Shown: positions 22,468 to 59,028 of the stretch, in pieces
How the letters are laid out: the number at the start of each line of letters is the position of its first letter
Numbering within the stretch: position 1 is the stretch's first letter
From: a virus
Direction: 5' to 3' (one strand)
DNA length: 64,000 nt
IMG/VR virus record: IMGVR_UViG_3300029305_004519
Location: 13,541-77,540 of that record
The notes under the pieces: generated by a model
Seen by the model: only the letters and a program-made list of their open reading frames with translations
Told to the model about the DNA's origin: nothing
Database searches by the model: none
Position numbers and translations under genes: made by a program

Positions 22468-22543
22468 GCTTTAAGTATGGCTGGGAGTGTGGGATTCGAA
22501 CCCACGCATAACCGGGTTAGAGCCGGAGGCCTTAGCCGCTTGG
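22468..22543 (-). tRNA. Amber suppressor tRNA, anticodon CUA, tRNA-Gln-like body (tRNA-Sup(CUA), predicted Gln)
   Basis: Hand-folded canonical 76-nt cloverleaf: AGGGAGT/ACTCCCA acceptor (A1·A72 mismatch, G2-C71, G3-C70), G73, encoded CCA, D-arm GCCA/AGGC, anticodon loop C-U-C-U-A-A-C (U33, C34 U35 A36), T-arm GTGGG-TTCGAAT-CCCAC. Shares TCGCCAAGCGG...CCCAGCCA features with the tRNA-Gln(UUG) at 42331-42408. Confidence 0.8.
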
Positions 22544-22602
22544 CGAACTCCCTATTGATTACATATAAATTATAATCAAAATTTTTGAAAAAATCAATTA
22601 TT

Positions 22603-28559: not shown

Positions 28560-29480
28560 TTATACCTCCAAACATTCTCTCAGCAATCCTGCGCGTAGCG
28601 GATTGCGCAGTTTGCGCAAGGCCTTTTCTTCAATCTGTCTAATGCGCTCTTTAGATAGCTTATATTCATTTCCAATTTCTTCCAAAGTCTGAGCTTTATG
28701 ATTATTCAAACCATAGCGACGTGTCAGCACATCTGCTTCTCTATTGTCAAGAGTTGATAATACTTGTTGAATACGCTTAGAGACTTCTTCTTTGAAAATG
28801 TCTTCAATTGGAGATTCATTATTTTCATCTGCTACTAAATCGCCAATAGTTGCATCATCTTCATCATTGATACTTTGATCAATAGAGATTGGGTCTTTAA
28901 CAATAGCTCGCAACTCTTTAATTTTCTTTTCTTCAAGTCCCATATGATTTGCAAGCTCTTGTGTGGTAGGTTCTCTATTCAGTACTTGACAGAGTTCATT
29001 AGTGGCACGACTCAGTTTACTAAGTTGCTCAATAACATGCATAGGTACTCGAATGGCTCGCGATTGCTCAACGACAACTTTAGAGATACTTTGTTTAATC
29101 CACCATGTAGCGTAGGTAGAAAATTTATAACCTAAAGTATAATCCCACTTATCTACGGCGCGCATTAATCCAATATTTCCCTCTTGAATTAAATCAAGAA
29201 ATGGCATATTGGTACGATGTAAATATTTTTTTGCAATACTTACTACCAAACGCAAATTTGCTTCAATCAGTTTATTCCTTGCTTCAATACTTCCATTTGC
29301 AATTTGGGCGCCTAAAGCTTGCTCTTCTTCGTAGGAGAGCAAAGGAATTTTACTAATTGAGTTCATATATGCTTTTGTTGCGTCTGGTAAAAAACCCATA
29401 TTATCAAAATCTACATCAATACTATTTTCTTCCTCAAGAATCAAATCTTCCGCTTCTAAAATCATTACATTATTTTCCAT
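28560..29480 (-). CDS. Sigma-70 family RNA polymerase sigma factor (regions 1.2, 2, 3 and 4 all present)
   Basis: ...[14 protein letters not shown]...[19 protein letters not shown]...[10 protein letters not shown] (region 2) ... [28 protein letters not shown] (region 4.2 HTH). Confidence 0.8.
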
Positions 29481-40121: not shown

Positions 40122-40197
40122 TGGAGGCGACACTCCGATTCGAACGGAGACCTCGTAGCTTTGCAGGCTCGCACCTTTGCCGTTTGGCTATGTCGCC
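40122..40197 (-). tRNA. tRNA-Cys(GCA)-like
   Basis: Acceptor GGCGACA/TGTCGCC, U73, CCA encoded, T-arm CTCCG-TTCGAAT-CGGAG, anticodon loop CUGCAAA. The anticodon stem is weak (3 bp). Confidence 0.5.
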
Positions 40198-40283
40198 ATA
40201 TCCAATTACCTCGCGCCACCGAACGGCGCGAGGTAAAAGCAGAAAGGAAGGTAGGAAAAATGTTGCCCAAAATTAAAAGGGGC

Positions 40284-40358
40284 TGGAGCAAGTAGCGAGA
40301 ATCGAACTCGCACCAAATGCTTGGAAGGCACTTATACTAGCCGTTATACGATACCTGC
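40284..40358 (-). tRNA. tRNA-Gly(UCC)
   Basis: Acceptor GCAGGTA/TACTTGC, U73, anticodon stem AGTGC/GCATT, loop CUUCCAA. Confidence 0.65.
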
Positions 40359-40443
40359 ATGGAGCTGAAGGTCCGATTCGAACGGACGCGGACTCTCGTC
40401 TCTCGCTTACAAGGCGAGTGCAATCGGCCACTATGCGACTTCA
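40359..40443 (-). tRNA. Class II tRNA (long variable arm). The canonical fold gives anticodon UGU, which is atypical.
   Basis: Acceptor GCTGAAG/CTTCAGC, U73, D-arm GCA/TGC with an 11-nt loop, anticodon stem CTCGC/GCGAG with loop CUUGUAA, a 14-nt variable arm, T-arm GTCCG-TTCGAAT-CGGAC. Directly abuts tRNA-Gly. Confidence 0.45.
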
Positions 40444-41228
40444 GCATATTAAGTTTTCAATAATCGCATAAGAAAATATATAATCACTTTAACGAGCCTT
40501 CACTCTACATCGTTTCTGAAGTGCGTTATTAACATATGTTCACGGGAGGCTGAGCAATGGGTAGCGATCCCACGCTTCTCCAATGGTTCTCTCTATCTTG
40601 CCCCGATAGGAAAGCAAGTAAATTAAACTACCACACCCTCGATCAATACTAAGGGAACTTTCACCGAGCTTCAGCATTAATTCTAAAATACCTGTTTTCA
40701 TCAAATTTGAAGCTATCTTTTATGCCCGATACGGCTACTCGCACCAGCCAAATCTGTTATAGTTTGTTACCAAACATCAACGGGAACGCTTATTTTTGAG
40801 ATACCTAGTTGATTATTCGCTTCATAACGGTTTCTCACGCCGCCAACTTTAGGTGGTATGCATCACTGCAGGGACTCTTCTCGCGCCAGATTCCTGACTG
40901 TTGTTTACGCTAAATCATCAATATGCACCATTATCCGCAACCTTTGTCAGGCATACTCGTTTATTCAGTATATTCACGAGTTTTATTTACTTTAGAGCAG
41001 TATCCCACTCTGTTTCTTTCCCCGCGGATCTGTCCTAGCCATCATGCAAGATGTCTGCACTAGGATGTTAAAGGTTTATATATTTTCTTATGCAATTATC
41101 AATGAACTTTTTTCTTTTGATTACTTAATCATTATATCATAAATTTTTTAAGTTTTCAAGAGAGAGGTGAGGCTTTAGGTCAGCCGACCGCACATCTGTT
41201 GATTGCTGGAACTTTTGCTCTTCCAAAA

Positions 41229-41305
41229 TGGTGCTTCAAATAGGATTCGAACCTATACTACCGAAGGTTTGAGCTTCGCGCCTCTGCCAATTGGGCTATT
41301 AAAGC
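41229..41305 (-). tRNA. tRNA-Leu(CAA)-like with a short (5-nt) variable arm
   Basis: Acceptor GCTTTAA/TTGAAGC, A73, Leu-type D-arm GCC-CAATTGGCAGA-GGC, anticodon stem CGAAG/CTTCG with loop CUCAAAC, variable GTAGT. Confidence 0.5.
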
Positions 41306-41861
41306 ATACTAAATAAATACTACTACCTATTTTCATTATACTTTCTGGCTTAGAACTCTTTGCTCTACCAGAACCACTCCTCTTCCCTTCGCGACCAGCT
41401 TTAAGTATGCATGAAATAAAGGCTGGCAGGTACTAGGCATTATCAATGCCGTTCGCTTGCTTTTTACACGGATTAACGCCTCAAACTAATCATAGGCTTT
41501 CGTATTTATTTGTACCGAATATGCTTGTGTTTGGAAAAGAGAAGCTCTCTTTTCTCGCTTGGATCGTTACTCACTACAGATATTGTGTAACACTTAGCAT
41601 ACCGTATCGTTAATCTTTCCAAGTTCATTCAATATATGGCTAGCGCTGTATCGCTTTTTGATTTATCGCATCGTGGGCCTCGCCGCGTCATCTTTTAACA
41701 GCGATGAATCTGTCGAATTTGATACGCGGATTTCGCCCGCGCCATTGACTTTATTGAAGGGTATTCGCGGTAATGGATCGCGTTTCTTGCTTTAACGCAT
41801 CAAGACTGCGGAGGTTATCTTTTCAACCGCCCTATCCCAGTTGAGTAATGAGATCAAGATA

Positions 41862-41944
41862 ACAGATCTATTGGTGTTGATTCTGGGACTCGAACCCAGA
41901 CCCTTTCGGACTAGTTCCTAAGACTAGCGCGGCTGCCAGTTACG
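41862..41944 (-). tRNA. tRNA-Leu(UAG)
   Basis: Acceptor GTTGGTT/AATCAAC, A73, anticodon stem CTAGT/ACTAG with loop CUUAGGA, long variable arm, T-arm CTGGG-TTCGAGT-CCCAG. Confidence 0.65.
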
Positions 41945-42038
41945 CCAAACCAACATTCCAGAGGCTATTGTTTTAGCGGTAATAGCCTAAACCCGCACAA
42001 AGAAGGGAGGAAAAATTGTGAAAATCAAAACGGTTCAT

Positions 42039-42114
42039 GGTGGAGAATATCGGCTATGATCCGATCACCTTCCGCTTGCAGGGCGGATGCTCTTCCAAAT
42101 GAGCTAATTCCCCA
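42039..42114 (-). tRNA. tRNA-Ala(UGC)
   Basis: Acceptor GGGGAAT/ATTCTCC with a G3·U70 pair, A73, anticodon stem TCCGC/GCGGA with loop CCUGCAA. The T-loop is atypical. Confidence 0.55.
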
Positions 42115-42248
42115 TTTTGCACTTTACTTTGCCTCTTTATATCCCGTTTGTCACAAGCCACATACTATGAAGTGGTAGTTTAAGTGCGAAATCCATGCTA
42201 ACGGATAAGAGTGCGGCTATATAGTCTAACTTAATAGACACCGACTCA

Positions 42249-42325
42249 TGGCTGGGGAGGTGGGGCACGATCCCACGACCTACGGTTTAACAGACCGTCG
42301 CTACTACCAACTGAGCTACACCCCA
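42249..42325 (-). tRNA. tRNA-Asn(GUU)
   Basis: Anticodon stem ACGGT/ACCGT with loop CUGUUAA, G73, D-arm GCTC-AGTTGGTAG-TAGC. One acceptor mismatch and an atypical T-loop. Confidence 0.55.
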
Positions 42326-42330
42326 ATCAA

Positions 42331-42408
42331 TGGCTGGGCAGGTTGGACTCGAACCAACGAAATGCAGGAGTCAAAGTCCTGTGCCGTAACCAACTTGGCT
42401 ACTGCCCA
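42331..42408 (-). tRNA. tRNA-Gln(UUG)
   Basis: Acceptor TGGGCAG/CTGCCCA (U1-A72), G73, anticodon stem CAGGA/TCCTG with loop CUUUGAC, T-arm GTTGG-TTCGAGT-CCAAC. Confidence 0.7.
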
Positions 42409-42498
42409 ATATATGATTAGCGACCTCTTTCGAGCAATTTTGAATCGAGAATTTGTTGATGGAAGCGGTCAAATAAGCCGCTTATATTGCATCGCCTT

Positions 42499-42545
42499 TA
42501 TCTTACATATATATTATATCATAAATTTTTTATTTTTTCAACGAA
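42499..42545 (-). promoter_or_regulatory. Conserved phage promoter (middle/late class) driving the tRNA sub-cluster
   Basis: Plus-strand atatatattatatcataaattttttattttttcaa. Confidence 0.55.
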
Positions 42546-42571
42546 TTATCCTTACGCTACCTTTTTATTTA

Positions 42572-42658
42572 TGGTGAGCGTGGCGGGAATCGAACCCGCG
42601 ATGGACATAATGTCGAGGGATTAAAAGTCCCTTGTACTCGCCGCTGTACTACACGCTC
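42572..42658 (-). tRNA. Class II tRNA (long variable arm). The canonical fold gives anticodon UUU, which is atypical.
   Basis: Acceptor GAGCGTG/CACGCTC, A73, D-arm GTAC-AGCGGCGA-GTAC, anticodon stem AGGGA/TCCCT with loop CUUUUAA, a 16-nt variable arm, T-arm GCGGG-TTCGATT-CCCGC. Confidence 0.45.
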
Positions 42659-42828
42659 ATATCAAGCGATTCGCGGCAGATAAAATTATTTTTGCATTGC
42701 TCTTAACTGCCGCTCCAACTTACGGATAATTCTTCCGTTGTCGCGTTTTCGGCTCTTAAGCAGATCAATGCGCGCTTGAAGCGCTTCTACAGTTCTCATT
42801 ATTTTTATTTCCTTTCTTTTGATTACAT

Positions 42829-42868
42829 ATATATTTTATCATAAATTTTTAATAAAATCAATGATAAA
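42829..42868 (-). promoter_or_regulatory. Conserved phage promoter (middle/late class)
   Basis: Plus-strand atatattttatcataaatttttaataaaatcaa. Confidence 0.55.
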
Positions 42869-43002
42869 TCTTAAAGCTGCCTTTCATCTAATGGTGGTTA
42901 GATGATAAGGACTGCTCGCACAGCGTTTATTATTGGCTACGCTTAAACCCATACTTAGGCTTGCGCCGCAGACAGTTTTGATTTAGCTACTGACAAACTT
43001 AT

Positions 43003-43078
43003 GGTGCGGCTTGTAGGACTCGAACCTACGGTCTTCTGGATGTAAGCCAGATGCTTTAACCAACTAAGCTAAACCCGC
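43003..43078 (-). tRNA. tRNA-Val(UAC)
   Basis: Anticodon stem TCTGG/CCAGA with loop CUUACAU, A73, T-arm GTAGG-TTCGAGT-CCTAC. One acceptor mismatch. Confidence 0.6.
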
Positions 43079-43193
43079 AAGAAAGAGAGGGGAGAATTTT
43101 TATACCCAGCAAGAGATAACTCTCCAAACTCAGAGTTTTACGAGGCGCCCGTCGATACTCGCTGGCAGCATCAAGGCGCAGATTAAATCATAT

Positions 43194-43270
43194 TGGTCTG
43201 AATGAAGGGACTCGAACCCCCAGCCTCTAGATCCCAAATCTAGAGCTCTGCCAAATTGAGCTACATCCAG
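43194..43270 (-). tRNA. tRNA-Pro(UGG)
   Basis: Acceptor CTGGATG/CATTCAG (C1-G72), A73, anticodon stem CTAGA/TCTAG with loop UUUGGGA. Confidence 0.65.
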
Positions 43271-43980
43271 ATGTGGTTCCATAAGGTCGGAAACCTCGCC
43301 GCACATTTTTCACCTACTAGCAGGGTCGCCATTTGCTCAATGCGATTATAAGAGCTTTTAAGCGCTTTCACGCGGAGGCTCTTACTTTATATTCCAGCTT
43401 TTGGATGCGGGAAGCTGGACCCGCGCCATTCATAGGGTTCGCGGATAAACCATCACCTACTACTAAGCCACATCATAACTTGCCCACTTCATCTTGGAGG
43501 AGCGACTCCAGCGGATATTTGGCCCACCGCTGCCTGTGTCTTGAGACTCAACACTATTACCTGTGTTTTTATATAGCGTTTTCAGCTTCGCTTTCTACTC
43601 GCTCTGTTGATAGGGGGAGGATCGAAGGGACTCCTCCCAGAGGTCATTATAGAAAAGAACCGTAGCGGAAATCTATTGGCGGTTCAATTTGTCTGCTTTA
43701 TCCGCAATTGAGAGGGAAACGGACTAAATGCTCTCGCAGGGGTTAAGGTACCCTGTTTTTGTAAGACATTACTCGAGTTATTCTTACCACAACTTCCGAC
43801 TTTACCTAATAGGCTGGTTTTCGCATTATCCATTTACCACAGTTTTCCTCCATTCATACTTGACTTCCGGCTTCGTGGCACCTATTATCTTTCCCGTTGC
43901 TCACGGATACGGGACCCCGGACGCTCTGCGTATTACCGCACAGGTTAGTCTCCTGACCAATGATTAGGCATTGGCACCTC

Positions 43981-44146
43981 TGGTGGAATGGGTAGGAGTT
44001 GAACCTACTTTGTCGCGACACACCGTGGCTTTACCGATTGCTTACCACCCCATAAATTGTGAGCGTTTATGCTTGGTAGCTCACTCCACTTCTGACCACT
44101 GGTCTTACACTCCCAGAGCGTGAAGATTTCAATACGGTTCTTCAAC
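43981..44146 (-). ncRNA. tRNA-like 3' domain (T-arm, G3·U70 acceptor, ACCA) without D and anticodon arms. Could be a tmRNA-like or other structured RNA.
   Basis: Minus strand ends ...GTAGG-TTCAACT-CCTAC-CCATTCC-A-CCA. Candidate 5' partner strands GGGGTGG (about 40 nt upstream) or GGAATGG (about 160 nt upstream). The interior has a perfect palindrome, GTGTCGCGACAC, not an anticodon arm. Confidence 0.3.
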
Positions 44147-44287
44147 CATTCCGCAGTATGCCGTTGGCTAACGATGACATACGATTCGTATCAGACTGTA
44201 GTACTCCAGCTTTTCACCTACGGCGTCTGATAATCGCCTTTTGTTAGTTTAGGGTTAATGCCGCGACGAACTAACAAAACTCGGCAT

Positions 44288-44363
44288 TGGCGACTCTGAG
44301 GCATTCCGACAGCCCGACCTTCGCAGTGACAGTGCGATGCTCTACCCCCTGAGCTACAGAGCC
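44288..44363 (-). tRNA. tRNA-Asp(GUC)
   Basis: Acceptor GGCTCTG/CAGAGTC, G73, D-arm GCTC-AGGGGGTA-GAGC, anticodon stem TCGCA/TGCGA with loop CUGUCAC. T-arm is irregular. Confidence 0.5.
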
Positions 44364-44524
44364 AAATATTAAAATAAAAGACTGGCTCAGTATGGATATT
44401 TCACCATAAGAAAAGTTTCCTGATTTAAGACTGACTAACTTGATGCCTGTTGATACGCGTTTATCTGAACAGGTCTTATTCGTTAAAATCCAGTCACCAA
44501 ATGTTGCTTTTTTTCTTTCTTTAT

Positions 44525-44570
44525 CTTTTGTATATATATTATAACAAAATTTTTATTAAAAATCAATTAA
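44525..44570 (-). promoter_or_regulatory. Conserved phage promoter (middle/late class)
   Basis: Plus-strand atatatattataacaaaatttttattaaaaatcaa. Confidence 0.55.
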
Positions 44571-44600
44571 GAATGCTTTATCCAGCTTCAATGAAAGATC

Positions 44601-44790
44601 TTATCTAGATTTTTCAACGGGCCAATCAAGAATCTTTCGACCATCTTGGCGCTTCATATAGCTAATTTTATTACACGCTTTGCAACGAAGACGCTTTCTA
44701 GTTCCAAAATGTGGAGTCCAAAACCACTTCCAAAAGTCTGTGATTTCATTTGTCTCTTTACAATGCTTACAAGTATATCTTACTTTCATA
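44601..44790 (-). CDS. Small zinc-ribbon protein inside the tRNA island
   Basis: MKVRYTCKHCKETNE...RLRCKACNK. RBS AGGAGG. The longer ORF-track version reads through the His tRNA. Confidence 0.45.
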
Positions 44791-44809
44791 ATAAACCTCC
44801 TAAAGTTTA

Positions 44810-44886
44810 TGGGGAGAAAGGTGGGGCTCGAACCCACAACATCTGGACTCACATTCCAGTGCTCTGCCAATTGCGCTACTAACTCC
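44810..44886 (-). tRNA. tRNA-His(GUG)
   Basis: Anticodon stem CTGGA/TCCAG with loop AUGUGAG, C73 with an extra 5' G(-1), T-arm GTGGG-TTCGAGC-CCCAC. The acceptor has two U·U mismatches. Confidence 0.5.
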
Positions 44887-44970
44887 AAGTATACACCCCC
44901 AACCTTGTGTCCCATTACAGTTGGCAAGAGGATTTTCCGTGATAGTGCATGATCTCAAAGGGACGCGCTC

Positions 44971-45047
44971 TGGTGGGAAGAATTGGAGTCGAACCAACAC
45001 ACTCTGGTTTTTCAGACCAGCGCTTAGACCGCTTAAGCTATCTTCCC
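44971..45047 (-). tRNA. tRNA-Phe(GAA)
   Basis: Acceptor GGGAAGA/TCTTCCC, A73, anticodon stem CTGGT/ACCAG with loop CUGAAAA. Confidence 0.7.
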
Positions 45048-45303
45048 ATATTCGAAGTGGGGAACTGGATTTTGATCGAGAGATATCCCCTTCGCATCTT
45101 GTACTGTTTGTGGTTGATTGACACATAGTACATTCCTGTAAACTCTATCCGACTTACACGGAGCCTTCTTTATCGCGTTTCGAACCACTTAGAAAGGCAT
45201 ATTTCTCAACACGCGTGGAATCTTCTGCATCCCCTTACCATGGGTGTACCTCCTCTTATTTTAAGACGGGTAGGGAGGCCGCGTCATACAAGAGCCTTTC
45301 GGC

Positions 45304-45379
45304 TGGAGCGATATACGAGACTTGAACTCGTTGCCTTCTGCATGGCAAGCAGACGCTCTACCAAATGAGCTAATACCGC
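45304..45379 (-). tRNA. tRNA-Gly(GCC)
   Basis: Acceptor GCGGTAT/ATATCGC, U73, D-arm GCTC-ATTTGGTA-GAGC, anticodon stem TCTGC/GCAGA with loop UUGCCAU. Confidence 0.7.
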
Positions 45380-45755
45380 ATTAAGGGAGAAGGTCCCGAT
45401 CTCCCACGGGGAATGAATTTCACATTATCACTCACAACGCCAATAGTCAATAACTGGCTTTCTATTGACAAAGCCCTCATTTGCGCCGTGCACTGCGCTT
45501 CGTCTTTAGCACTGGACACAAGCCTACAGTTCCTAAAGGTTATCAAATATACACACGGTAATGAGTTACCGTTTGCTACTTTTTTAGAGCATTTTCGCGC
45601 TCATGGCTTATCGATGGTAGCTAACCAATATCACGGCAAGGTCATGACTCCTTGCGACAAATTTCAAAGCTCGCGATGAGTGTTTTAGCCTCATATCAAA
45701 CTACGCTCTTAGGCGGAGGGCATCGAACCCCCTTCTCTCTTAACTTTGAAATTTT

Positions 45756-45830
45756 GGTGTGGACTCTAGGGATCGAACCTAGGACAACGCGATTATCAGT
45801 CGCGTCCTCTTCCAACTGAGGTAAGCCCAC
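45756..45830 (-). tRNA. tRNA-Ile(GAU)
   Basis: Anticodon stem CGCGA/TCGCG with loop CUGAUAA, A73, T-arm CTAGG-TTCGATC-CCTAG. Confidence 0.65.
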
Positions 45831-45961
45831 ATATTAAAAATGGAAACTTCAAGTGGGTCGGCGTATCCTCTATCCAACTTTTCCGCGCTGTCGACTCGGC
45901 GCTTCACCGTGCTACTTTTTATCCGCGTCCAGACCTGCTCCTTACAGGTGTTTCCTATGTA

Positions 45962-46056
45962 TGGCGGAGGAGGTAGGATTCGAACCCACGGGTCAGATCA
46001 AAGCTGACACAACAGATTTCAAGTCTGTGCGCTTATGTCCTCTTGCGCACTCCTCC
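45962..46056 (-). tRNA. tRNA-Ser(UGA)
   Basis: Acceptor GGAGGAG/CTCCTCC, G73, anticodon stem ACAGA/TCTGT with loop CUUGAAA, long variable arm. 95 nt. Confidence 0.7.
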
Positions 46057-46455
46057 ATAATGCACAGATTCTCGTACTGTGCGCAGTCCCATATGGCGCC
46101 TTGAAAAGACTGCACGAGGAATGTTTATACAGGCACATTCACTCAAACCTAACCTAGACTTCTCAATAAGGTCACACTGTGTGCTTTCTCTACTACGGCG
46201 GTTCGCACGCTTTAATGTCTCGCACAAAAGACAGCTGGCAGAGAGCGCAGGTCCCGACCCTGAGCGGATAACCGCCACATCCCTTAGCAGGGGAGTGCCG
46301 CGCCTTGCGACTTCACTCTCTATAATGTGTGTTCCACTTGCGTTTTCTCTTCTTCATCGGTTTACACACAACCTACCACTTGAAGCGCCACTAATTTATA
46401 TACCGAGTCTGGCTTTCGTCGGTGAATTACACTAATTGTGTTACTTTGCGCTGGT

Positions 46456-46613
46456 GCTACCCCCGGGACTCGAACCCGGACGCCTCTAACGAGACACTGG
46501 ATTTTTGGTGCCTGAAATGAGATTTGAACTCATAATCTGAAGCTAGGTCGCCCCAGAGTTTTCCGTTTGAGCTTATTCAAGCAAGTCCAGGGCGTCTGCC
46601 ATTCCGCCACGGT
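46456..46613 (-). ncRNA. Composite tRNA-like element: a class II tRNA interrupted in its anticodon loop by an ~85-nt insert that itself ends in a tRNA-like T-arm, acceptor and CCA
   Basis: 5' half GCTACCG..CTGGA-CUUGC..., then ...GAGTTCAAATCTCATTTCAGGCACCA, then AAAATCCAG plus variable arm GTCTC-GTTA-GAGGC, then CCGGG-TTCGAGT-CCCGG-GGGTAGC-A-CCA. Confidence 0.35.
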
Positions 46614-46626
46614 AGCATAATGCGTC

Positions 46627-46986
46627 TTACCAAGGACGCACAAAACTATACAGTTTCAATATTGGGCAACCAAGTTGCTCATAAAACTCCTCTCCAAAGA
46701 ATTGGTTAAAAGCGTAAGGAATTTCATATTCTTGATTTTTAAGCCAGCCTTTAACTTCAGTAGGATCAAGTTCGATTTCATCATCAAGTCTTACTCCAAA
46801 ATACACAAAATCTGGATCAGAATATCCATTATCAGTAATGAAATATAAATCTGGAAACTGTTCATCAAGAATATCACCCAATTCCCAAAATTCTCTTCCT
46901 GTTGCCCGAAACATAGCCGCATAATTTTCATTTGTTAAAGGAATTTGAAATCCATAAATTAAAACTGAACTATAATCAACACTCAT
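46627..46986 (-). CDS. Hypothetical protein
   Basis: 119-aa ORF, RBS present, conserved promoter upstream at about 47005-47050. Confidence 0.4.
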   Translation of the reverse strand: MSVDYSSVLIYGFQIPLTNENYAAMFRATGREFWELGDILDEQFPDLYFITDNGYSDPDFVYFGVRLDDEIELDPTEVKGWLKNQEYEIPYAFNQFFGEEFYEQLGCPILKLYSFVRPW

Positions 46987-47080
46987 TTTTATTTCCTCTT
47001 TCCTTTTGATTACATATATATTTTATCATATTTTTTAATAAAAATCAATAAAGTATATGCAATTTAAAGTTATTGATAAA

Positions 47081-47167
47081 TGGTGGGAAGGGTGGGAATT
47101 GAACCCACTGAGACCGAAGCCAACGGTGTTACAGACCGCCCCAACTCTCCTACTTTGGCGCCCGCCC
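47081..47167 (-). tRNA. tRNA-Tyr(GUA)
   Basis: Acceptor GGGCGGG/CCTTCCC (one mismatch, one GU), A73, anticodon stem GCGGT/ACCGT with loop CUGUAAC, long variable arm, T-arm GTGGG-TTCAATT-CCCAC. Confidence 0.55.
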
Positions 47168-47253
47168 ATATTAAAATGACTTTAAGTCAGTCAACTGCAC
47201 ATCCATTTAGCCTCCCACATTTGCTCTCGGAGGGTAAATAATATGGATAATAC

Positions 47254-47342
47254 TGGAGCGAAAGGCGAGATTCGAACTCGCGATAGTGGAGTATTAAAAC
47301 CCGTCCCTATAACGGGCGCCTTTACCTCTAGGCTACTTTCGC
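47254..47342 (-). tRNA. Class II tRNA with an ambiguous anticodon loop (UAUAGGG; possibly UAG)
   Basis: Acceptor GCGAAAG/CTTTCGC, U73, T-arm GCGAG-TTCGAAT-CTCGC, anticodon stem CCCGT/ACGGG, long variable region. Confidence 0.4.
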
Positions 47343-47345
47343 ATA

Positions 47346-47417
47346 TGGTGCCAGAATCTGGAGTCAAACCAAACACTCAAGGTGTATGAAACCTCAATGC
47401 GCATCGGCGCTTCTGGC
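47346..47417 (-). tRNA. tRNA-Met(CAU) (elongator type or Ile2-type)
   Basis: Acceptor GCCAGAA/TTCTGGC (G1-C72), A73, anticodon stem GAGGT/ACCTT with loop UUCAUAC. Short D-arm. Confidence 0.5.
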
Positions 47418-47849
47418 ATAAAGAGGAAGTAAGAGAGACCAATCTCTTGTTTGTTTTGGTACAACATATCCTCATTCAAAACCTGCAGTCTGGTTCACTG
47501 CACGAACACTGGCTTCTTTAACGGCTACCAGCCCGACGACATGAGGGATGGGGCATCATGTATACCCATAGTATTTTTGGTCTGACCTCAACTACTCTTG
47601 GTCTGGATGCGGATCCGCAGACTCGAACTGGGCAACCTGAGCTTATGAGGCTCTGGCGGGCACCTTGCCCATCCGCAATGTAAGTGAGAGTTTCCAGCAC
47701 CCTCGTAGCTTTATCCCAACTTCCCTTTAAGCACAGCCAAGTTGGCACTGTGCGCCTTATCATTTTATACGAGTGTAAGGTAACACATACGGGCGCCTTT
47801 CCGCGGATCCCAAGCGGCGCATCTAATTCACAAAGGCTTGGCATTACAT

Positions 47850-47927
47850 TGGTGACGCTAGGGGGATTTGAACCCACCGAATACCACCGTGAAAGGGTGG
47901 TGACTTAGACCGCTTGTCAATAGCGCC
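47850..47927 (-). tRNA. tRNA-Glu(UUC)
   Basis: Anticodon stem CCACC/GGTGG with loop CUUUCAC, A73, T-loop TTCAAAT. Confidence 0.55.
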
Positions 47928-48195
47928 GTCGACCCTGAGGATTCTCTACAAGCCCCTCAGGTAGCTCTCGTGTTTTTCGTACTGTTCCGAGCAACGCTCT
48001 TTTATCATGCTTCCTCGCAACCGCTAAGAGTAAACGCGCTGCGCCATTCATCATCAAATAATCTCCGCGCCTCACTCCATTGGGCGCGCAGCTGTAAACG
48101 GTCACTCCACCAACCGTTAATTTTAGAGTGGGTTTTTTCTATTAATTCGCGTCATACCCACTAACGCTTATAGAGAGGGACTTAACGGACTCGAA

Positions 48196-48268
48196 CCGTT
48201 GCCATCATATTTAAAAATTATGAGCTCTACCATCTGAGCTAAGGTCCCAGAATCGGAGTATTATAATC
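48196..48268 (-). tRNA. tRNA-Lys(UUU), no encoded CCA
   Basis: Acceptor GGGACCT/AAGTCCC, D-arm GCTC-AGATGGTA-GAGC, anticodon stem CATAA/ATATG with loop UUUUUAA, T-arm AACGG-TTCGAGT-CCGTT. Confidence 0.6.
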
Positions 48269-48578
48269 GCCCTCCGAGGCGCGTTGATCAACTGCCAATT
48301 CCGCTCGTTACACCGCTGAGTCTCTGGCATCTCTCACCGCGTTCAATCTGTTTGGTTTTTTAACTCTCTACGAACAGAGACTCTGAGTGATTGAAACCTC
48401 TTTTGTCTGAAACGGAAAGTTTCTCCAAACTTACAAGGATAAGTTTCAATATCGGCTAAAACTTATAAAGAACGCCCTTCACTAGGGTAGTACAGCCTTG
48501 GGCTCATGAACCCTTAGCCGCATTCCAAGTAGTTGGTGCCCCGGCTGGCAACCTATGGGGACTACGGCTCCCATAATT

Positions 48579-48818
48579 TTACTCTACGATATAGTCAGAA
48601 AAATCAACCCAGTCTCCAAGAGAAGTGATGACTTCACCGCCAAACTTATCTTCATCTGCATGAAGATAAAGAGAATCAATATCCAACACTCCGCCGCAAC
48701 AACTCCAAATAACCTTATCTTCAAAAGCAATTCCTACAAAGAATTGAGGTTCTCCGTCTTCCATGCAGTCATATGCGCGAACTCTTGTAGGTTCGTCAAA
48801 CCAATATACATTTTCCAT
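48579..48818 (-). CDS. Hypothetical small acidic protein
   Basis: 79-aa ORF with RBS. Confidence 0.4.
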   Translation of the reverse strand: MENVYWFDEPTRVRAYDCMEDGEPQFFVGIAFEDKVIWSCCGGVLDIDSLYLHADEDKFGGEVITSLGDWVDFSDYIVE

Positions 48819-48879
48819 TTTTCTTTCTCCTCTCTTTATCTTACAAATATATTATATCATATTTTTTTATAAAAATCAA

Positions 48880-49251
48880 TCAACGATCAACAGTCATGAT
48901 TACGCGCCACACAGGAATTAAATCCGCTGAAACCTTACATAGGTCATGCGCATAATTCATAAGCTTTCGATTAAGGTCTACATCCGATTGAACAGAAAGT
49001 AAATCAAGAGGATCAAACACGACTGCCATATTATCATCAGAAACAGAAGGTGACCAATAGCCAAAATACCACGGTCCCTCAAGGGCGCCATAAGTATCGG
49101 TTGGACGCAGCTCAAATTCATCTATTCCATTCATTAAAAGATCTCGATCTTTATCAGTTAAGGGGCCAGCTTGCACCTCAAACCCATAACAAAGACTCGA
49201 CTTATGCTCTACGCTCATTTTACTTATCGCTCCTTTATACAAAATCTTCAA
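48880..49251 (-). CDS. Hypothetical protein
   Basis: 123-aa ORF. Confidence 0.4.
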   Translation of the reverse strand: MKILYKGAISKMSVEHKSSLCYGFEVQAGPLTDKDRDLLMNGIDEFELRPTDTYGALEGPWYFGYWSPSVSDDNMAVVFDPLDLLSVQSDVDLNRKLMNYAHDLCKVSADLIPVWRVIMTVDR

Positions 49252-49452
49252 AAGTTCCTACAAAGATAAAACGACTTCTGAGGAACTGCAATTCGCTTGC
49301 TTGACGAATTACAGTGATATGTTTTACATTATCATCGTCGATATACCAAACAGCTTTAATTACAGTTTTCATAAGTGTCTCTCCTTTGCTTTTTCAATTT
49401 TCTTTTGTAATTTATTATAACATAAATTTTTTAAGAAATCAATTTACGAATA

Positions 49453-49671
49453 TTAAATCACAATAAAATCTTCGATGTTTCGATAAATATCTTCATCAGA
49501 TTCGCACCAAAGCTCTTCAAACTCCATCGCGTACAGAGCGCCGAGCAATGACTTTGCGCTAACTTTAAGCCCTGCATTATCGGTGATATATACATTACCA
49601 TGCATACGCGTTGCGATATTTACGAAATCTTGCACATTATGCATAGTGTCTAAACGAATTTGTACTTTCAT
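49453..49671 (-). CDS. HPr-like phosphocarrier-family small protein
   Basis: MKVQIRLDTMHNVQDFVNIA...GLKVSAKSLLGALYAMEF resembles the HPr His15 region (GLHTRPA) and Ser46 region (SASAKSLFKLQTLGL). 72 aa. Confidence 0.4.
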   Translation of the reverse strand: MKVQIRLDTMHNVQDFVNIATRMHGNVYITDNAGLKVSAKSLLGALYAMEFEELWCESDEDIYRNIEDFIVI

Positions 49672-49785
49672 ACTTTTGCCTCTCTTTCATTTTATACTTT
49701 ATTTTATCATATTTTTTTATAAAAATCAATGAGGCGCACAAGCTTCACTATAAGTTTTCTTATGGTGCAGATTGAAGTATTTGGC

Positions 49786-49854
49786 AGGGGACCAAGGAAT
49801 CGGACCAAGGTCTTCGCTTTTGGAGAGCGTTATTCTACCATTGAACTAGTCCCC
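49786..49854 (-). tRNA. tRNA-Trp(CCA)-like with an aberrant T-arm
   Basis: Acceptor GGGGACT/GGTCCCC, D-arm GTTC-AATGGTA-GAAT, anticodon stem CGCT/AGCG with loop CUCCAAA. The T-arm region holds a direct repeat (CCTTGGTCC x2) rather than a stem. Confidence 0.35.
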
Positions 49855-49862
49855 TATATTTA

Positions 49863-50108
49863 TTACCAGACATCCCACCAATATTCTGATACTCTACGAT
49901 ACAATCCTTTAGAACTAAGCGCTCCTTTATAGCGACGAACAGCGCGATTGCATTTGCGCTTTACGAATTTAGCTCTTCTTGGTTGCCAATAACGAATATA
50001 TCTGCCTTTTTCATCATCATACCAGACACCGGCGCCATAGTGACGCATAGTTTTATCATAAAGACGCTTATATCTTTTCTTTGTCTCTTGGCTTCTTTTA
50101 TATCCCAT
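49863..50108 (-). CDS. Small basic protein
   Basis: 81 aa, K/R-rich. Confidence 0.4.
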   Translation of the reverse strand: MGYKRSQETKKRYKRLYDKTMRHYGAGVWYDDEKGRYIRYWQPRRAKFVKRKCNRAVRRYKGALSSKGLYRRVSEYWWDVW

Positions 50109-50181
50109 AGCGCACCTCCATTATTTTGGTATAGATTATAAAAATAGGTTTAATTACTTTATTTAACTTTGAAAAAAATTT

Positions 50182-50337
50182 TTACTTCTAATCCTCCATG
50201 GATCGACGCATTTGCGCCTTATCTCGTTTGCGATTATATTTCTTCTTACTTTCAACTACTCTTGTGCGAAGAAAAGCAGAATTTTGAATCCGCTCTTTTC
50301 TACGCTCTTTAGATTCTTTTGCTTCAAGTGGTTTCAT
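50182..50337 (-). CDS. Small basic protein whose frame runs ...MED-TAG-AAG-TAA (recoded TAG one codon before the TAA stop)
   Basis: MKPLEAKESKERRKERIQNSAFLRTRVVESKKKYNRKRDKAQMRRSMED[TAG]K, then TAA. Confidence 0.4.
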
Positions 50338-50364
50338 TTCTGCTTTTCTCCTTTTGAATAATGT

Positions 50365-50441
50365 TGGTGCGGGCGTCGGGACTTGAACCCAGCATCACGC
50401 GATTATAAGTCGCGCGCTCTGACCAATTGAGCTACACCCAC
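50365..50441 (-). tRNA. tRNA-Ile(UAU)
   Basis: Acceptor GTGGGTG/CGCCCGC (two GU pairs), A73, D-arm GCTC-AATTGGTCA-GAGC, anticodon stem CGCGA/TCGCG with loop CUUAUAA. Confidence 0.6.
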
Positions 50442-50471
50442 AATATGGCTTACGCCATACTTAATTGTGGC

Positions 50472-50547
50472 TGGCACCGCGTCTAGGATTCAAACCTAGG
50501 TCTCACTCCTTCGTAGGGAGGTACACTATTCACTATGCTAACGCGGC
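50472..50547 (-). tRNA. tRNA-Arg(ACG)
   Basis: Acceptor GCCGCGT/ACGCGGT, G73, anticodon stem CTCC/GGAG with loop CUACGAA, T-arm CTAGG-TTTGAAT-CCTAG. Confidence 0.6.
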
Positions 50548-50590
50548 ATAAAATGGTATTCCCTCAGAGACTCGAACTCTGGGTCTTCTA

Positions 50591-50630
50591 TAATTGATGA
50601 GGAAATTATTCCTCATCAATTAATTTTTGA
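50591..50630. terminator. Perfect 11-bp hairpin plus T-run, at the 3' end of gene 50606-51055
   Basis: TTGATGAGGAA-atta-TTCCTCATCAA followed by TTAATTTTTG. Confidence 0.45.
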
Positions 50631-51055
50631 TACTGTGCTTCAAAACAATAATCTTCTGCTAATCTTATTCCTATTTTTTGGTTATTTTTCGGTGGATCAA
50701 GCCTAATATTTAATTGTTGTGGAATACTCTCGTCGCTATCTTGAACAATATATAATCCGCACCAATTATTTTCTACGCAGTATAAGAAAAAAATATCAAT
50801 ATCGCGTGTAGAATAAGGCACACTTTTCCATGAACCTTTAGTATAGTTCGTAGTTTTAGTAGCAAATTCCATTTTTCCATCTTTAACTGCATTAGTAGCT
50901 TTAACTTGCACTCGATATATCTTATGATTTATTTCTACAACTAAATCATATCGTGCATTATTAGATAAAGGCTTGGAAACAATTGCTCCCTTAGATAAAA
51001 AATTCACCAAAGCTAATGCTTCTCCATAATCTCCAATTGAAACAGTATTCGACAT
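50606..51055 (-). CDS. Hypothetical protein
   Basis: 149-aa ORF. Confidence 0.4.
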   Translation of the reverse strand: MSNTVSIGDYGEALALVNFLSKGAIVSKPLSNNARYDLVVEINHKIYRVQVKATNAVKDGKMEFATKTTNYTKGSWKSVPYSTRDIDIFFLYCVENNWCGLYIVQDSDESIPQQLNIRLDPPKNNQKIGIRLAEDYCFEAQYQKLIDEE

Positions 51056-51287
51056 TTAAAAAGTCCTCCTTTAATATTTTATATTTTTCTGTTCACTATT
51101 ATATAAAAATTAAAGTAATATCTTTAAATAAAACTGACCAAATTTTTGTCAATAGGTTGTTTATTAGTCAGACGCTTTACCATCTAAGCTAAGGGAATAT
51201 ATTTACTTCCAACCGCCGAACGAGTAGCACGGTCATCTGGTCTCCTTTAATGGCAAGACGCTTACTACATTTCTCATGTTTTCCTTG

Positions 51288-51365
51288 TGGCACGGGATAC
51301 TGGACTCAAACCAGTGACCTAGCGCTTAGAAGGCGCTTGCTGCTGTTCAACTGAGCTAATCCCGC
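51288..51365 (-). tRNA. tRNA-Arg(UCU)
   Basis: Acceptor GCGGGAT/ATCCCGT, G73, D-arm GCTC-AGTTGAACA-GCAG, anticodon stem AGCGC/GCGCT with loop CUUCUAA, T-arm ACTGG-TTTGAGT-CCAGT. Confidence 0.65.
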
Positions 51366-51377
51366 ATACGAAGGGAA

Positions 51378-52124
51378 TTAGATAAAATTCCCTTCTCTAA
51401 AATAAATTGATTGCATAATAAGTTCTTCAAGTATACGATCTACTCCGGGCTTATAAGAACCCTTACCCGTATAAAAATCAAGATCATTTAAATAGTCTTC
51501 AAGAACACCTAAAAGCAACTTTACAAAAGAGGGGTCAGGTGTCTTATACCTGTGTTCGCGTACATCATCTGCCATCCAGATACAGTCTTTATAAGACTCT
51601 TTAGTATCAAGAATCTTCTCAAGAGTGCGCACAATACGCACACCATTCATAATCTTCTTTGGATCTTCTGGATTTTGTTTAATGGTATGAATAGCTTGAT
51701 GCACCATAGAATGAATGGCTTGACGAAAATCATAACGCGCTACCTTTTCTCTATCTGCAAGAGGGAATTGTTCTGCCCAAAACTCCTTATATAAAGGATT
51801 AATAATGCAATAATTAGTAAACATTATTTCAACAAAATTAATGTTCTGCTTTTTCCAATTTGCAACCATATGCATAATGCTCATACACTCACAGACTTCA
51901 AAGCCCTCTTCAGTATGAATATGAAGGTGCTTAACTTCAAAAGGCTTAATAGCAAGATTGTAAATTGAAGGAATAAGAATACATTTAGTATCTACATCAG
52001 AATCTGGAGTGTTGGTGTTATAGTTCCAGCTACCATACAGAAATACGCCAAGAACTGCTTCTTTGCCAAAATGCTCTATAGCGCGTGTATAATGTTTATT
52101 TACTCTTGCCATTACATCAGTCAT
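51378..52124 (-). CDS. Pol-beta-superfamily nucleotidyltransferase domain protein
   Basis: LYGSWNYNTNTPDSDVDT (GS...DxD). True start MTDVMARV with RBS GAGAGGGAAT. 248 aa. Confidence 0.5.
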   Translation of the reverse strand: MTDVMARVNKHYTRAIEHFGKEAVLGVFLYGSWNYNTNTPDSDVDTKCILIPSIYNLAIKPFEVKHLHIHTEEGFEVCECMSIMHMVANWKKQNINFVEIMFTNYCIINPLYKEFWAEQFPLADREKVARYDFRQAIHSMVHQAIHTIKQNPEDPKKIMNGVRIVRTLEKILDTKESYKDCIWMADDVREHRYKTPDPSFVKLLLGVLEDYLNDLDFYTGKGSYKPGVDRILEELIMQSIYFREGNFI

Positions 52125-52194
52125 TTTTATTCCCTCTCTTTCTTTTAACATATATATTTTATCATATTTTTTTGATAAAATCAAAAGAGAAATA

Positions 52195-58840: not shown

Positions 58841-59028
58841 TGATACTTGAAAAGGTGGAATTGTAATAAAGTATAATAAAGTGCGGGTGTGTGGTGGCAC
58901 CTAATCCAAACCCACTTCACTACACCCTCGTCTCCGTTATCCTTATGGAGATTAATATCTCTTATTTGATTTATAATAAAATATATGATATAATATATAT
59001 AGAAAATGGAAAGGAGAATATAAATAAT

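What the first reader, a model, noticed from the sequence alone, without database searches (positions are those of the whole stretch)
49453..49671. HPr-like phosphocarrier homolog encoded by the phage
The 72-aa protein aligns with HPr around the phospho-His region (DTMHNVQDFVNIA against NGLHTRPAAQFV) and the regulatory Ser46 region (GLKVSAKSLLGALYAMEF against SASAKSLFKLQTLGL). In Firmicutes, HPr-Ser46-P with CcpA controls catabolite repression. A phage mimic could rewire host carbon metabolism or interfere with HPrK or CcpA.
Basis: partly seen in the sequence, partly recalled or inferred. Interest (0 to 1): 0.55.

Follow-up and report, generated by a model that had tools for sequence, protein, structure and literature searches.

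The report
Histidine-less mini-HPr protein in phage
A large gut phage carries a real 72-residue gene for a stripped-down relative of the bacterial sugar-signalling protein HPr that has lost the phosphate-carrying histidine but kept the regulatory serine, so it cannot carry phosphate but may tamper with the host's carbon-source control.

Summary
The ORF at 49453-49671 (minus strand, 72 aa) is a real gene. It has its own promoter-like element and ribosome-binding site, about 430 homologue clusters, and dN/dS of about 0.15.

The HPr-like reading is supported at family level:
- A family profile hits Crh/HPr structures (E 1e-4).
- hhalign against Crh+HPr gives 95.8% probability.

The Ser46 motif is the best-conserved feature: S41 is present in 99% of 247 sequences, within a VNAKSIMG-type motif.

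The phospho-His alignment is wrong. H11 is peculiar to this phage, and profile alignments place a 3-residue deletion over His15-Ala16-Arg17. The protein is therefore not a phosphocarrier. No curated HPr or Crh model is passed.

The family is not confined to phages. Copies about 53% identical lie downstream of lepA in two Oscillospiraceae-like chromosomes. The phage's strong Shine-Dalgarno usage also points to a Firmicutes host.

My best inference is a Ser/Thr-phosphorylatable decoy or partner in HprK/P-CcpA signalling. This is untested. I rate it a new variant of a known kind, of moderate interest.

The parts
49453..49671 (-). Coding sequence of the 72-aa His-less mini-HPr (ATG at 49671, TAA stop at 49453-49455). 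Predicted topology is beta-alpha-beta-beta-alpha-beta-alpha. Key residues are T9 (opposite HPr/Crh position 12), S41 (opposite Ser46) and G44 (opposite Gly49).
   Evidence: ORF list. 111 close homologues. 429 representative clusters. Conservation table. dN/dS 0.13-0.17. AlphaFold2 pLDDT 95.9. HPr fold matches. Profile matches to Crh/HPr.
49679..49684 (-). Shine-Dalgarno-like GAGAGG, 8-13 nt upstream of the ATG.
   Evidence: Read from the sequence. 49 of 71 minus-strand genes in the window have an SD core at -20..-4, against 12% at random positions.
49701..49729 (-). Promoter-like element TTGATT-N14-TGATAAAAT (-35, 17-nt spacer, extended -10). The -10 ends 30 nt upstream of the ATG. It is one of 16 near-identical copies in the window.
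   Evidence: Promoter scan. Pattern TTGATTN14TGNTAWAAT: 16 matches against 0.00 expected in 100 shuffles, 15 of them on the minus strand ahead of genes.

Best explanation
SHOWN.
- The gene encodes a 72-residue, single-domain, remote homologue of HPr/Crh with the HPr open-faced beta-sandwich fold.
- The family has lost the phosphocarrier machinery. It has no conserved His, and the loop that carries His15-Ala16-Arg17 is 3 residues shorter.
- The family has kept, as its most conserved feature, the helix-B motif V-(S/N)-A-K-S-(L/I)-L-G. This corresponds to the Ser46 phosphorylation site of Firmicutes HPr/Crh.
- It also keeps a Thr (T9, 96%) opposite HPr/Crh position 12.
- The gene is under purifying selection. 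It has its own promoter-like element of the phage's repeated class, plus an SD sequence.
- It travels as a stand-alone gene, without conserved neighbours, across diverse large phages (~100-160 kb contigs). Chromosomal copies lie downstream of lepA in Oscillospiraceae-like Clostridia.

INFERRED.
- It is not a PTS phosphocarrier but a regulatory HPr-like module.
- After infection it is made from its own promoter, read by the host sigma-A RNA polymerase or by the phage's own sigma-70-type factor.
- It presents the HPr helix-A/helix-B face to host partners of HPr.
- The most likely route is that Ser41 is recognised by the host HPr kinase/phosphorylase. The protein then acts as a competing substrate or trap for HprK/P, or as a competitor of Ser(P)-HPr for CcpA and other Ser(P)-HPr partners.
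- Because Arg17 and His15 are missing, it should bind differently from the true co-repressor. The net effect would shift carbon catabolite control and inducer exclusion in favour of phage replication.
- The direction of that effect (relief or imposition of repression) cannot be told from sequence.
For: Homology and fold:
- Profile against PDB: Crh 1k1c/2rlz/1mo1/1zvv at E 1e-4, then HPr.
- hhalign against Crh+HPr: 95.8%, E 7e-9.
- NCBIfam HPr/Crh model hit weakly by 18 of 40 members; PF00381 by 14 of 40.

Conserved sites: S41 99%, T9 96%, G44 94%, K40 88%; position 11 variable. Motif in 208 of 247.

Real gene: dN/dS 0.13-0.17; promoter-like element and SD.

Firmicutes setting:
- SD usage 49 of 71 genes and GC 38%.
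- Chromosomal homologues lie in genomes whose LepA is 88-89% identical to proteins named Ruminococcaceae/Oscillospiraceae MAG.
- Clostridia possess HprK and phosphorylate HPr at the Ser46 and Ser12 equivalents (PMC8730811).

Crh precedent: a His15-less HPr paralogue that HprK/P phosphorylates on Ser46 and that then binds CcpA. Non-phosphorylatable forms are trapped on the kinase (PMC2788870).

Stand-alone nature: distant phages share only this gene locally.
Against: - No experiment or docking was possible, so no partner has been identified.
- His15 is part of the HPr-HprK/P interface (PMC2788870). From memory of the CcpA-HPr structures, Arg17 and His15 contact CcpA. Deleting that loop could abolish rather than modify both interactions.
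- Ser46 is the N-cap of helix B, and T9 sits just before predicted helix A (helix 10-21). Their invariance could therefore be structural.
- Ser46 is also conserved in E. coli HPr, which has no HprK (my own knowledge).
- The host and its HprK/CcpA repertoire are inferred, not known. One relative sits on a 19-kb contig binned to a Bacteroidales MAG.
- No PTS, HprK or CcpA gene is adjacent in phage or bacterial loci.
- The window protein has N12 where 81% of the family has Asp.
Confidence: 0.4

Rival explanations
1. An HPr-fold adaptor that binds some other host protein, independent of HprK/P and CcpA. The target might be a metabolic enzyme or a transcription factor. On this reading S41 and T9 are conserved mainly as helix N-caps or contact residues rather than as phosphosites.
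For: HPr and Crh are promiscuous binders using the same helix-A/helix-B face. PDB hits include HPr complexes with glycogen phosphorylase (9s8k/9s8b), the anti-sigma factor Rsd (4xwj) and FruR (7x7h). YesS also binds HPr (PMC2788870). From memory, unphosphorylated Crh inhibits methylglyoxal synthase.

The active-site loop used by HprK/P and CcpA is deleted. The C-terminal third (E50-[FW]51, [WY]55-C56, D61-I62-Y63) is conserved within the family but not aligned to HPr by hhalign. That suggests family-specific functions. Chromosomal copies sit by lepA with no PTS genes nearby.
Against: The single most conserved stretch is precisely the HprK/P target motif of Firmicutes HPr/Crh, including K40, S41 and G44. 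A pure N-cap role would usually tolerate S, T, D or N, yet Ser is found in 99%.
Confidence: 0.35
2. A small-molecule-sensing domain of the NiaR '3H' type, which is an HPr-like fold. It would be linked to the phage's NAD salvage genes.
Against: All sequence-profile signals go to HPr/Crh and none to the 3H domain. The family has no conserved histidines. There is no DNA-binding domain. The linkage to NAD genes is loose and is not kept across loci.
Confidence: 0.04
3. A genuine PTS phosphocarrier that uses His11.
For: The window protein has a His two residues after the conserved Thr. One metagenomic 76-aa protein (P0256) joins a canonical GLHARPA N-terminus to a family-type C-terminus.
Against: H11 is replaced by S, R, T, K or N in almost all relatives. 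Arg17 and Pro18 are absent. H11 lies inside predicted helix A (10-21), whereas His15 lies immediately before the first helix (PMC8509676 abstract). No curated HPr model is passed. No EI or EII genes are nearby.
Confidence: 0.02

Closest known systems
Crh (catabolite repression HPr) of Bacillus subtilis and other Bacillaceae (PDB 1k1c, 1mo1, 2rlz, 1zvv)
   Same: It is the best sequence-profile match (E 1e-4; hhalign 95.8%). Both have the HPr fold without the phosphorylatable His15. Both keep the Ser46 motif: VNAKSIMG in Crh against V(S/N)AKS(L/I)LG here. Both have a Thr at position 12. Both would be regulatory rather than phosphocarrier.
   Different: - Crh keeps the full active-site loop (G13-L14-Q15-A16-R17-P18). 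This family lacks three of those residues, including Arg17.
- This protein has 72 aa against 85, with a shorter C-terminal helix.
- The C-terminal third carries its own conserved motifs (E-[FW], [WY]-C-E, D-I-Y).
- It scores 15.5 bits against the Crh/HPr equivalog cut-off of 123.
- It is encoded by phages and by Oscillospiraceae-like Clostridia rather than in the Bacillaceae yvc operon (operon context from my own knowledge).
HPr (PtsH), PTS phosphocarrier, Pfam PF00381 / TIGR01003
   Different: No His15 and no Arg17, so no PEP/Enzyme I-dependent phosphotransfer is expected. The window protein gets no PF00381 hit. No genomic link to ptsI or EII genes was seen.
HPr-fold proteins auto-annotated in uncultured gut phages (UniProt A0A8S5PSI8, A0A8S5S213, A0A8S5S9E0 in BFVD)
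   Same: They are phage-encoded, 81-88 aa, with the HPr fold (TM 0.82-0.84 for two of them). They show that HPr-like genes in gut viromes have already been noticed by annotation pipelines.
   Different: They are only 13-20% identical to this protein and 9-16 residues longer, so they are probably other lineages. I could not read their sequences to check His15. None is experimentally characterised as far as the searched literature shows.
NiaR 3H domain (PDB 9ebr, 7cv2)
   Different: No sequence-profile relationship was detected. The family has no conserved His triad and no fused DNA-binding domain.

Membership tests
HPr / PTS phosphocarrier (PF00381, TIGR01003) | Open-faced beta-sandwich with beta-alpha-beta-beta-alpha-beta-alpha topology | tested here: met
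HPr / PTS phosphocarrier (PF00381, TIGR01003) | Active-site His15 at the N-cap of helix A, in a G-x-H-(A/T)-R-P loop | tested here: not met
   H11 is not conserved; the commonest residues are S, R, T, K, N. Only 9 of 239 members have a His in the loop, and only the odd P0256 has GLHARP. The alignments require a 3-residue deletion over positions 15-17.
HPr / PTS phosphocarrier (PF00381, TIGR01003) | Conserved Arg17 | tested here: not met
   Arg17 is invariant in the Crh+HPr alignment A2. It has no counterpart in A1, where it falls in the deletion.
HPr / PTS phosphocarrier (PF00381, TIGR01003) | Score above the curated family threshold | tested here: not met
   The window protein has no Pfam hit at E<=10. 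14 of 40 members hit PF00381 weakly, best E 3.3e-4. 3 of 40 hit TIGR01003, best E 0.0039.
HPr / PTS phosphocarrier (PF00381, TIGR01003) | Regulatory Ser46 in a K-S-(I/L)-(M/L/F) motif at the start of helix B | tested here: met
   S41 aligns with Ser46. Conservation is S41 99%, K40 88%, G44 94%. The motif is in 208 of 247 sequences. Predicted helix B starts at residue 42.
HPr / PTS phosphocarrier (PF00381, TIGR01003) | Phosphotransfer from Enzyme I to EIIA | not testable with these tools
   This needs a biochemical assay. It is not expected in the absence of His15.
Crh (NCBIfam NF010354 / PRK13782) | His15 replaced (by Gln) while the rest of the loop (A16-R17-P18) and the ~85-aa length are kept | tested here: not met
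   The loop is shortened by 3 residues and the protein has 72 aa. Crh orthologues have 85 aa with an intact loop.
Crh (NCBIfam NF010354 / PRK13782) | Equivalog score at or above 123 bits | tested here: not met
   15.5 bits, E 0.013. 18 of 40 members hit the model, best E 0.0093.
Crh (NCBIfam NF010354 / PRK13782) | Ser46 phosphorylated by HprK/P, and Ser(P) form binds CcpA | not testable with these tools
   The site motif is conserved, but phosphorylation and binding need experiments. The property of Crh itself is taken from PMC2788870.
NiaR 3H domain | Conserved histidines forming the ligand/metal site, fused to an HTH domain | tested here: not met

The most novel reading that the evidence does not exclude
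These roughly 72-aa proteins would form a distinct, previously undescribed branch of the HPr superfamily, shared by gut Clostridia (Oscillospiraceae-like) and their large phages. The branch would have discarded phosphotransfer altogether and would work purely as a Ser/Thr-phosphorylated signalling module, using T9 (position 12) and S41 (position 46). The phage copies would be deployed from their own promoter to hijack HprK/P-CcpA carbon catabolite control, or PrkC-type signalling, of the host. That would be a virus-encoded manipulator of the central carbon-status switch of Firmicutes.
Probability: 0.25. Interest if true: 0.65.

Novelty: new variant of a known kind. Interest (0 to 1): 0.5.

Why it matters
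HPr-Ser46 phosphorylation is the master carbon-status signal of Firmicutes. It drives CcpA-dependent catabolite repression and inducer exclusion.

A phage-borne, histidine-less HPr that keeps only the regulatory serine would be a compact tool for rewiring host carbon metabolism during infection of abundant but poorly studied gut Clostridia.

The family is large: 429 representative clusters at 50% identity. I found no model for it. The window protein has no Pfam hit and members score only weakly against the HPr models, none of the 40 aligned members has a convincing PHROGs hit, and two members give no match in deposited phage genomes.

It also shows how far the HPr fold can be trimmed (72 aa, active-site loop deleted) while keeping the helix-B site.

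Chromosomal copies next to lepA suggest there is also an unknown cellular role. If the protein proves to be only a generic binding module, the finding is a modest family annotation.

Tried and rejected
- Single-sequence searches were essentially negative: Pfam, PHROGs (one 0.14 hit to an unknown family) and PDB. Homology appeared only with family profiles.
- Nucleotide megablast of 48000-52000 against deposited phages gave no match. tblastn of the protein and of a distant member (P0120) against the same collection also gave none.
- PHROGs has no family for HPr, Crh or this family.
- PADLOC gave no defence-system match for the protein or its relatives.
- The GTDB genome scan used one narrow peptide pattern and found only one locus, a 19-kb contig binned to a Bacteroidales MAG. 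It cannot measure how common chromosomal copies are, and it missed the lepA-linked ones.
- Cluster look-ups returned no organism names. I inferred taxonomy from named LepA relatives instead.
- tblastn of B. subtilis HPr against phage records gave hits only in unannotated fragments and 'Bacteriophage sp.' contigs. These may be host contamination, so I did not use them as evidence for phage HPr.
- Literature searches for phage-encoded HPr found nothing relevant. The MMBR PTS review was not held. Searches gave no interface residue lists, so the CcpA contact details (Arg17, His15) rest on my memory.
- The AFDB50 fold library was unavailable.
- The test for TAG recoding was inconclusive in this window.
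- No conserved partner gene was found next to the mini-HPr across distant phages.
The 12 Crh sequences came from the database.

Full report
**1. The observation**

It lies in a minus-strand block of small genes interspersed with a 25-gene tRNA array, between tRNA-Trp (49782-49855) and tRNA-Lys (48175-48248).

The window is from a large phage. It encodes:
- RecJ, DnaB, primase, topoisomerase II subunits, an NAD-dependent ligase, an RNA ligase and a nicotinamide phosphoribosyltransferase;
- a sigma-70-type factor and an isochorismatase-family protein;
- homing endonucleases.

Relatives of the gene sit on viral contigs of 55-221 kb.

**2. Is it a real gene?**

Yes, on four counts.
- There are 111 homologues at E<=0.01 in the 90%-clustered database, nearly all 70-76 aa.
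- A family profile finds 429 representative clusters (50% identity) at E<=0.001, and 205 at E<=1e-10.
- Pairwise dN/dS against orthologues in related phages is 0.13-0.17 where dS is not saturated.
- Eight to thirteen nucleotides upstream of the ATG is GAGAGG. 49 of 71 minus-strand genes in the window carry an SD core, against 12% of random positions.

Thirty nucleotides upstream ends a promoter-like element, TTGATT-17 nt-(TG)ATAAAAT at 49729-49701. The pattern TTGATT-N14-TGNTAWAAT occurs 16 times in the window against 0.00 expected, 15 times on the minus strand ahead of genes. The gene therefore has its own copy of the phage's repeated promoter class. Who reads these promoters, host sigma-A or the phage sigma factor at 28560-29480, is not known.

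**3. Is it HPr-like?**

As a single sequence it barely registers. There is no Pfam hit at E<=10 and no PDB hit. The only signal is a 15.5-bit match to the NCBIfam HPr/Crh model, whose cut-off is 123 bits.

At family level the signal is consistent.
- An HMM of 40 members hits the five Crh chains in the PDB at E 1e-4 to 2e-4, then HPr of Thermoanaerobacter and Bacillus anthracis.
- 14 of 40 members hit PF00381 and 18 of 40 hit the NCBIfam HPr/Crh model, all weakly.
- hhalign against a Crh+HPr alignment gives 95.8% probability, E 7e-9, over 47 columns.
- The AlphaFold2 model is confident (pLDDT 95.9, pTM 0.84) and has HPr's beta-alpha-beta-beta-alpha-beta-alpha order.
- The top 40 Foldseek PDB hits are all HPr, Crh or NPr.

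**4. What is and is not conserved**

Across 247 family sequences the most conserved positions are:

| Position | Conservation |
|---|---|
| S41 | 99% |
| T9 | 96% |
| G44 | 94% |
| L7 | 92% |
| F16 | 91% |
| V37 | 90% |
| K40 | 88% |
| E50 | 87% |
| A39 | 86% |
| D61 | 86% |
| D31 | 85% |
| D12 | 81% |

Both HMMER and hhalign align S41 with Ser46, K40 with Lys45 and G44 with Gly49. 208 of 247 members carry an 8-residue motif that also matches VNAKSIMG (Crh) and VNLKSIMG (Firmicutes HPr).

The His alignment is not.
- Position 11 is S, R, T, K or N in most members, and His is not in the top five.
- Only 9 of 239 members have any His in the four residues after the L-x-T motif.
- The profile alignments need a three-residue deletion that removes positions 15-17 (His/Gln15, Ala16, Arg17). 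They put H11 opposite Leu14 and T9 opposite Thr12.
- In the model, helix A begins at residue 10. In HPr, His15 lies immediately before the first helix (PMC8509676 abstract). The residue in that structural position here is T9, not H11, which lies inside the helix.

The exact placement of the gap is uncertain. The absence of a conserved His or Arg is not uncertain. The protein is therefore not a phosphocarrier.

**5. Where the family lives**

Close relatives (69-76% identity) keep synteny with the window. More distant phages (42-55% identity) share only this gene locally, with no conserved neighbour (contexts). It therefore behaves as a stand-alone module.

Unexpectedly, P0084 (53% identical) lies in an ordinary bacterial chromosome. 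Its neighbours are obg, ligA, an S1-domain gene, pfk, maf and lepA upstream, and on the other side spoU, a biotin ligase, trkA/H, a PASTA kinase, a PP2C phosphatase, a radical-SAM gene and a PBP.

A second genome keeps maf-lepA-X with different downstream genes, and its X is 78% identical. LepA of that contig is 88-89% identical to proteins named 'MAG: Ruminococcaceae/Oscillospiraceae bacterium'.

With the strong SD usage and 38% GC, this points to a Clostridia (Bacillota) host. One contrary hint is a relative on a 19-kb contig binned to a Bacteroidales MAG. I consider a mis-binned phage contig more likely there.

Clostridia possess HprK and phosphorylate HPr at the equivalents of Ser46 and Ser12 (PMC8730811).

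**6. Mechanism**

Shown:
- an HPr/Crh-like fold;
- loss of the phosphotransfer loop;
- retention of the Ser46 motif, and of a Thr opposite position 12;
- an independent promoter-like element;
- occurrence as a stand-alone gene in phages and in some Clostridial chromosomes.

Inferred: the protein acts on the host's HPr-centred regulatory network. The nearest functional model is Crh. Crh is a His15-less paralogue that HprK/P phosphorylates on Ser46 and that then binds CcpA. Its S46A form is trapped on the kinase (PMC2788870).

Because the family keeps the kinase target motif but lacks His15 and Arg17, my preferred reading has two possible routes:
- a competing substrate or trap for HprK/P;
- a non-productive competitor of Ser(P)-HPr for CcpA and other partners.

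His15 is part of the HprK/P interface. From my memory of the CcpA-HPr structures, His15 and Arg17 both contact CcpA.

Either route would alter catabolite repression and inducer exclusion during infection. The sign of the effect is not predictable. I give this 0.4.

The main rival (0.35) is an HPr-fold adaptor for another partner, with S41 and T9 conserved as helix caps or contacts. HPr is known to bind many unrelated proteins, including glycogen phosphorylase, Rsd and FruR among the PDB hits. In addition, the family-specific C-terminal motifs are not explained by HPr.

A true phosphocarrier role is essentially excluded.

**7. Comparison and novelty**

The protein fails the formal membership tests for HPr (no His15, no Arg17, below thresholds) and for Crh (loop deleted, 72 against 85 aa, 15.5 against 123 bits). 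It meets the fold and Ser46 criteria. It is best described as a new, minimal, His-less branch of the HPr superfamily.

It is not in PHROGs v4 and not in deposited phage genomes.

The idea of phage HPr-like genes is not entirely new. BFVD holds three gut-virome proteins of 81-88 aa with this fold, auto-named 'Catabolite control protein A', 'PTS HPr component phosphorylation site' and 'HPr domain-containing protein'. They are only 13-20% identical to this one. I found no experimental literature on any of them.

One curiosity is P0256, on a 752-bp contig. It joins a canonical GLHARPA HPr N-terminus to a family-type C-terminus. It is either an evolutionary intermediate or an assembly chimera.

**8. 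Verdict**

I rate it a new variant of a known kind, with moderate interest (0.5). The family is large, unannotated and shared between gut Clostridia and their big phages. It touches the central carbon switch of Firmicutes, but its function rests wholly on inference.

Noticed in passing
window, 16 sites: minus strand at 1639, 17133, 25989, 29524, 30645, 33255, 42833, 44538, 47020, 48851, 49414, 49701, 52156, 55509, 56071; plus strand at 58966 (each 29 nt): There are sixteen near-identical promoter-like elements, TTGATT-N14-TGnTAWAAT (consensus about TTGATTTTTATTAAAAAAATATGATATAAT), against 0 expected in shuffles. They look like a dedicated promoter class with an extended -10. They could be read by host sigma-A or by the phage's own sigma factor.
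   Followed up: partly
window 28560-29480 (-): A 306-aa protein has sigma-70 regions 1.2, 2, 3 and 4 (Pfam E 1e-8 to 7e-22). This is a full primary-like sigma factor encoded by the phage. Relatives are present in L010 and L013 at 46% identity.
   Followed up: no
window 22478-22553 (-), and the tRNA array at 40122-51365 (-): There are 25 tRNA genes, all on the minus strand. One has anticodon CTA, an amber suppressor that ARAGORN calls 'Pyl'. My crude test of TAG-as-sense raised ORF coverage from 67% to 77%, but the ORFs containing TAG mostly look like read-through into upstream regions. Stop-codon recoding is neither shown nor excluded in this window.
   Followed up: partly
window 30716-33283 (-): An 855-aa protein carries a Major Vault Protein shoulder domain (E 1e-23) and a vault repeat. 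It has no PHROG match. This is an unusual domain for a phage.
   Followed up: no
window 37476-39014 (-): A 512-aa SPFH/Band 7 protein with a flotillin-like region (E 6e-23 and 6e-6). It has no PHROG match.
   Followed up: no
window 15970-17103 (-) and 14186-15019 (-): The NAD-dependent DNA ligase appears split into two ORFs: the adenylation/OB part (377 aa) and the HHH+BRCT part (277 aa). They are separated by about 950 bp. A GIY-YIG endonuclease gene lies nearby at 12363-13274. This may be an intron or intein-type interruption, or a genuinely split gene.
   Followed up: no
window 35348-36607 (-) and 33506-34027 (-): A nicotinamide/nicotinate phosphoribosyltransferase lies near an isochorismatase-family (nicotinamidase-like) protein. 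Together they form a phage NAD-salvage module. The same pair occurs in the related phage locus L024 at 86% and 48% identity.
   Followed up: no
L021 8001-8225 and L032 3260-3484 (bacterial chromosomal loci): Homologues of the mini-HPr lie immediately downstream of lepA on the same strand in two Oscillospiraceae-like genomes, GCA_054279875.1 and GCA_965349845.1. They are about 53% identical to the phage protein and 78% identical to each other. The family therefore has a cellular role too.
   Followed up: partly
L020 244-474 (752-bp metagenome contig): P0256 is a 76-aa protein with a canonical HPr N-terminal half (GLHARPA, Arg17) fused in register at VNAKSLLG to a family-type C-terminal half (EWDELYCESDADIY). 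It is either an evolutionary intermediate or an assembly chimera.
   Followed up: no
L017 8001-8217: The mini-HPr orthologue in IMGVR_UViG_3300029305_002985 is split into two overlapping reading frames. This looks like a frameshift, from either a pseudogene or a sequencing error.
   Followed up: no
window 50606-51055 (-) and 51378-52184 (-): Two neighbours of the gene have recognisable domains. One is a PD-(D/E)XK endonuclease (PF11645, E 7e-26; the PADLOC 'HEase' homing-endonuclease model also matches). The other is a 268-aa protein with a weak nucleotidyltransferase signature. The remaining small neighbours have no family match.
   Followed up: partly
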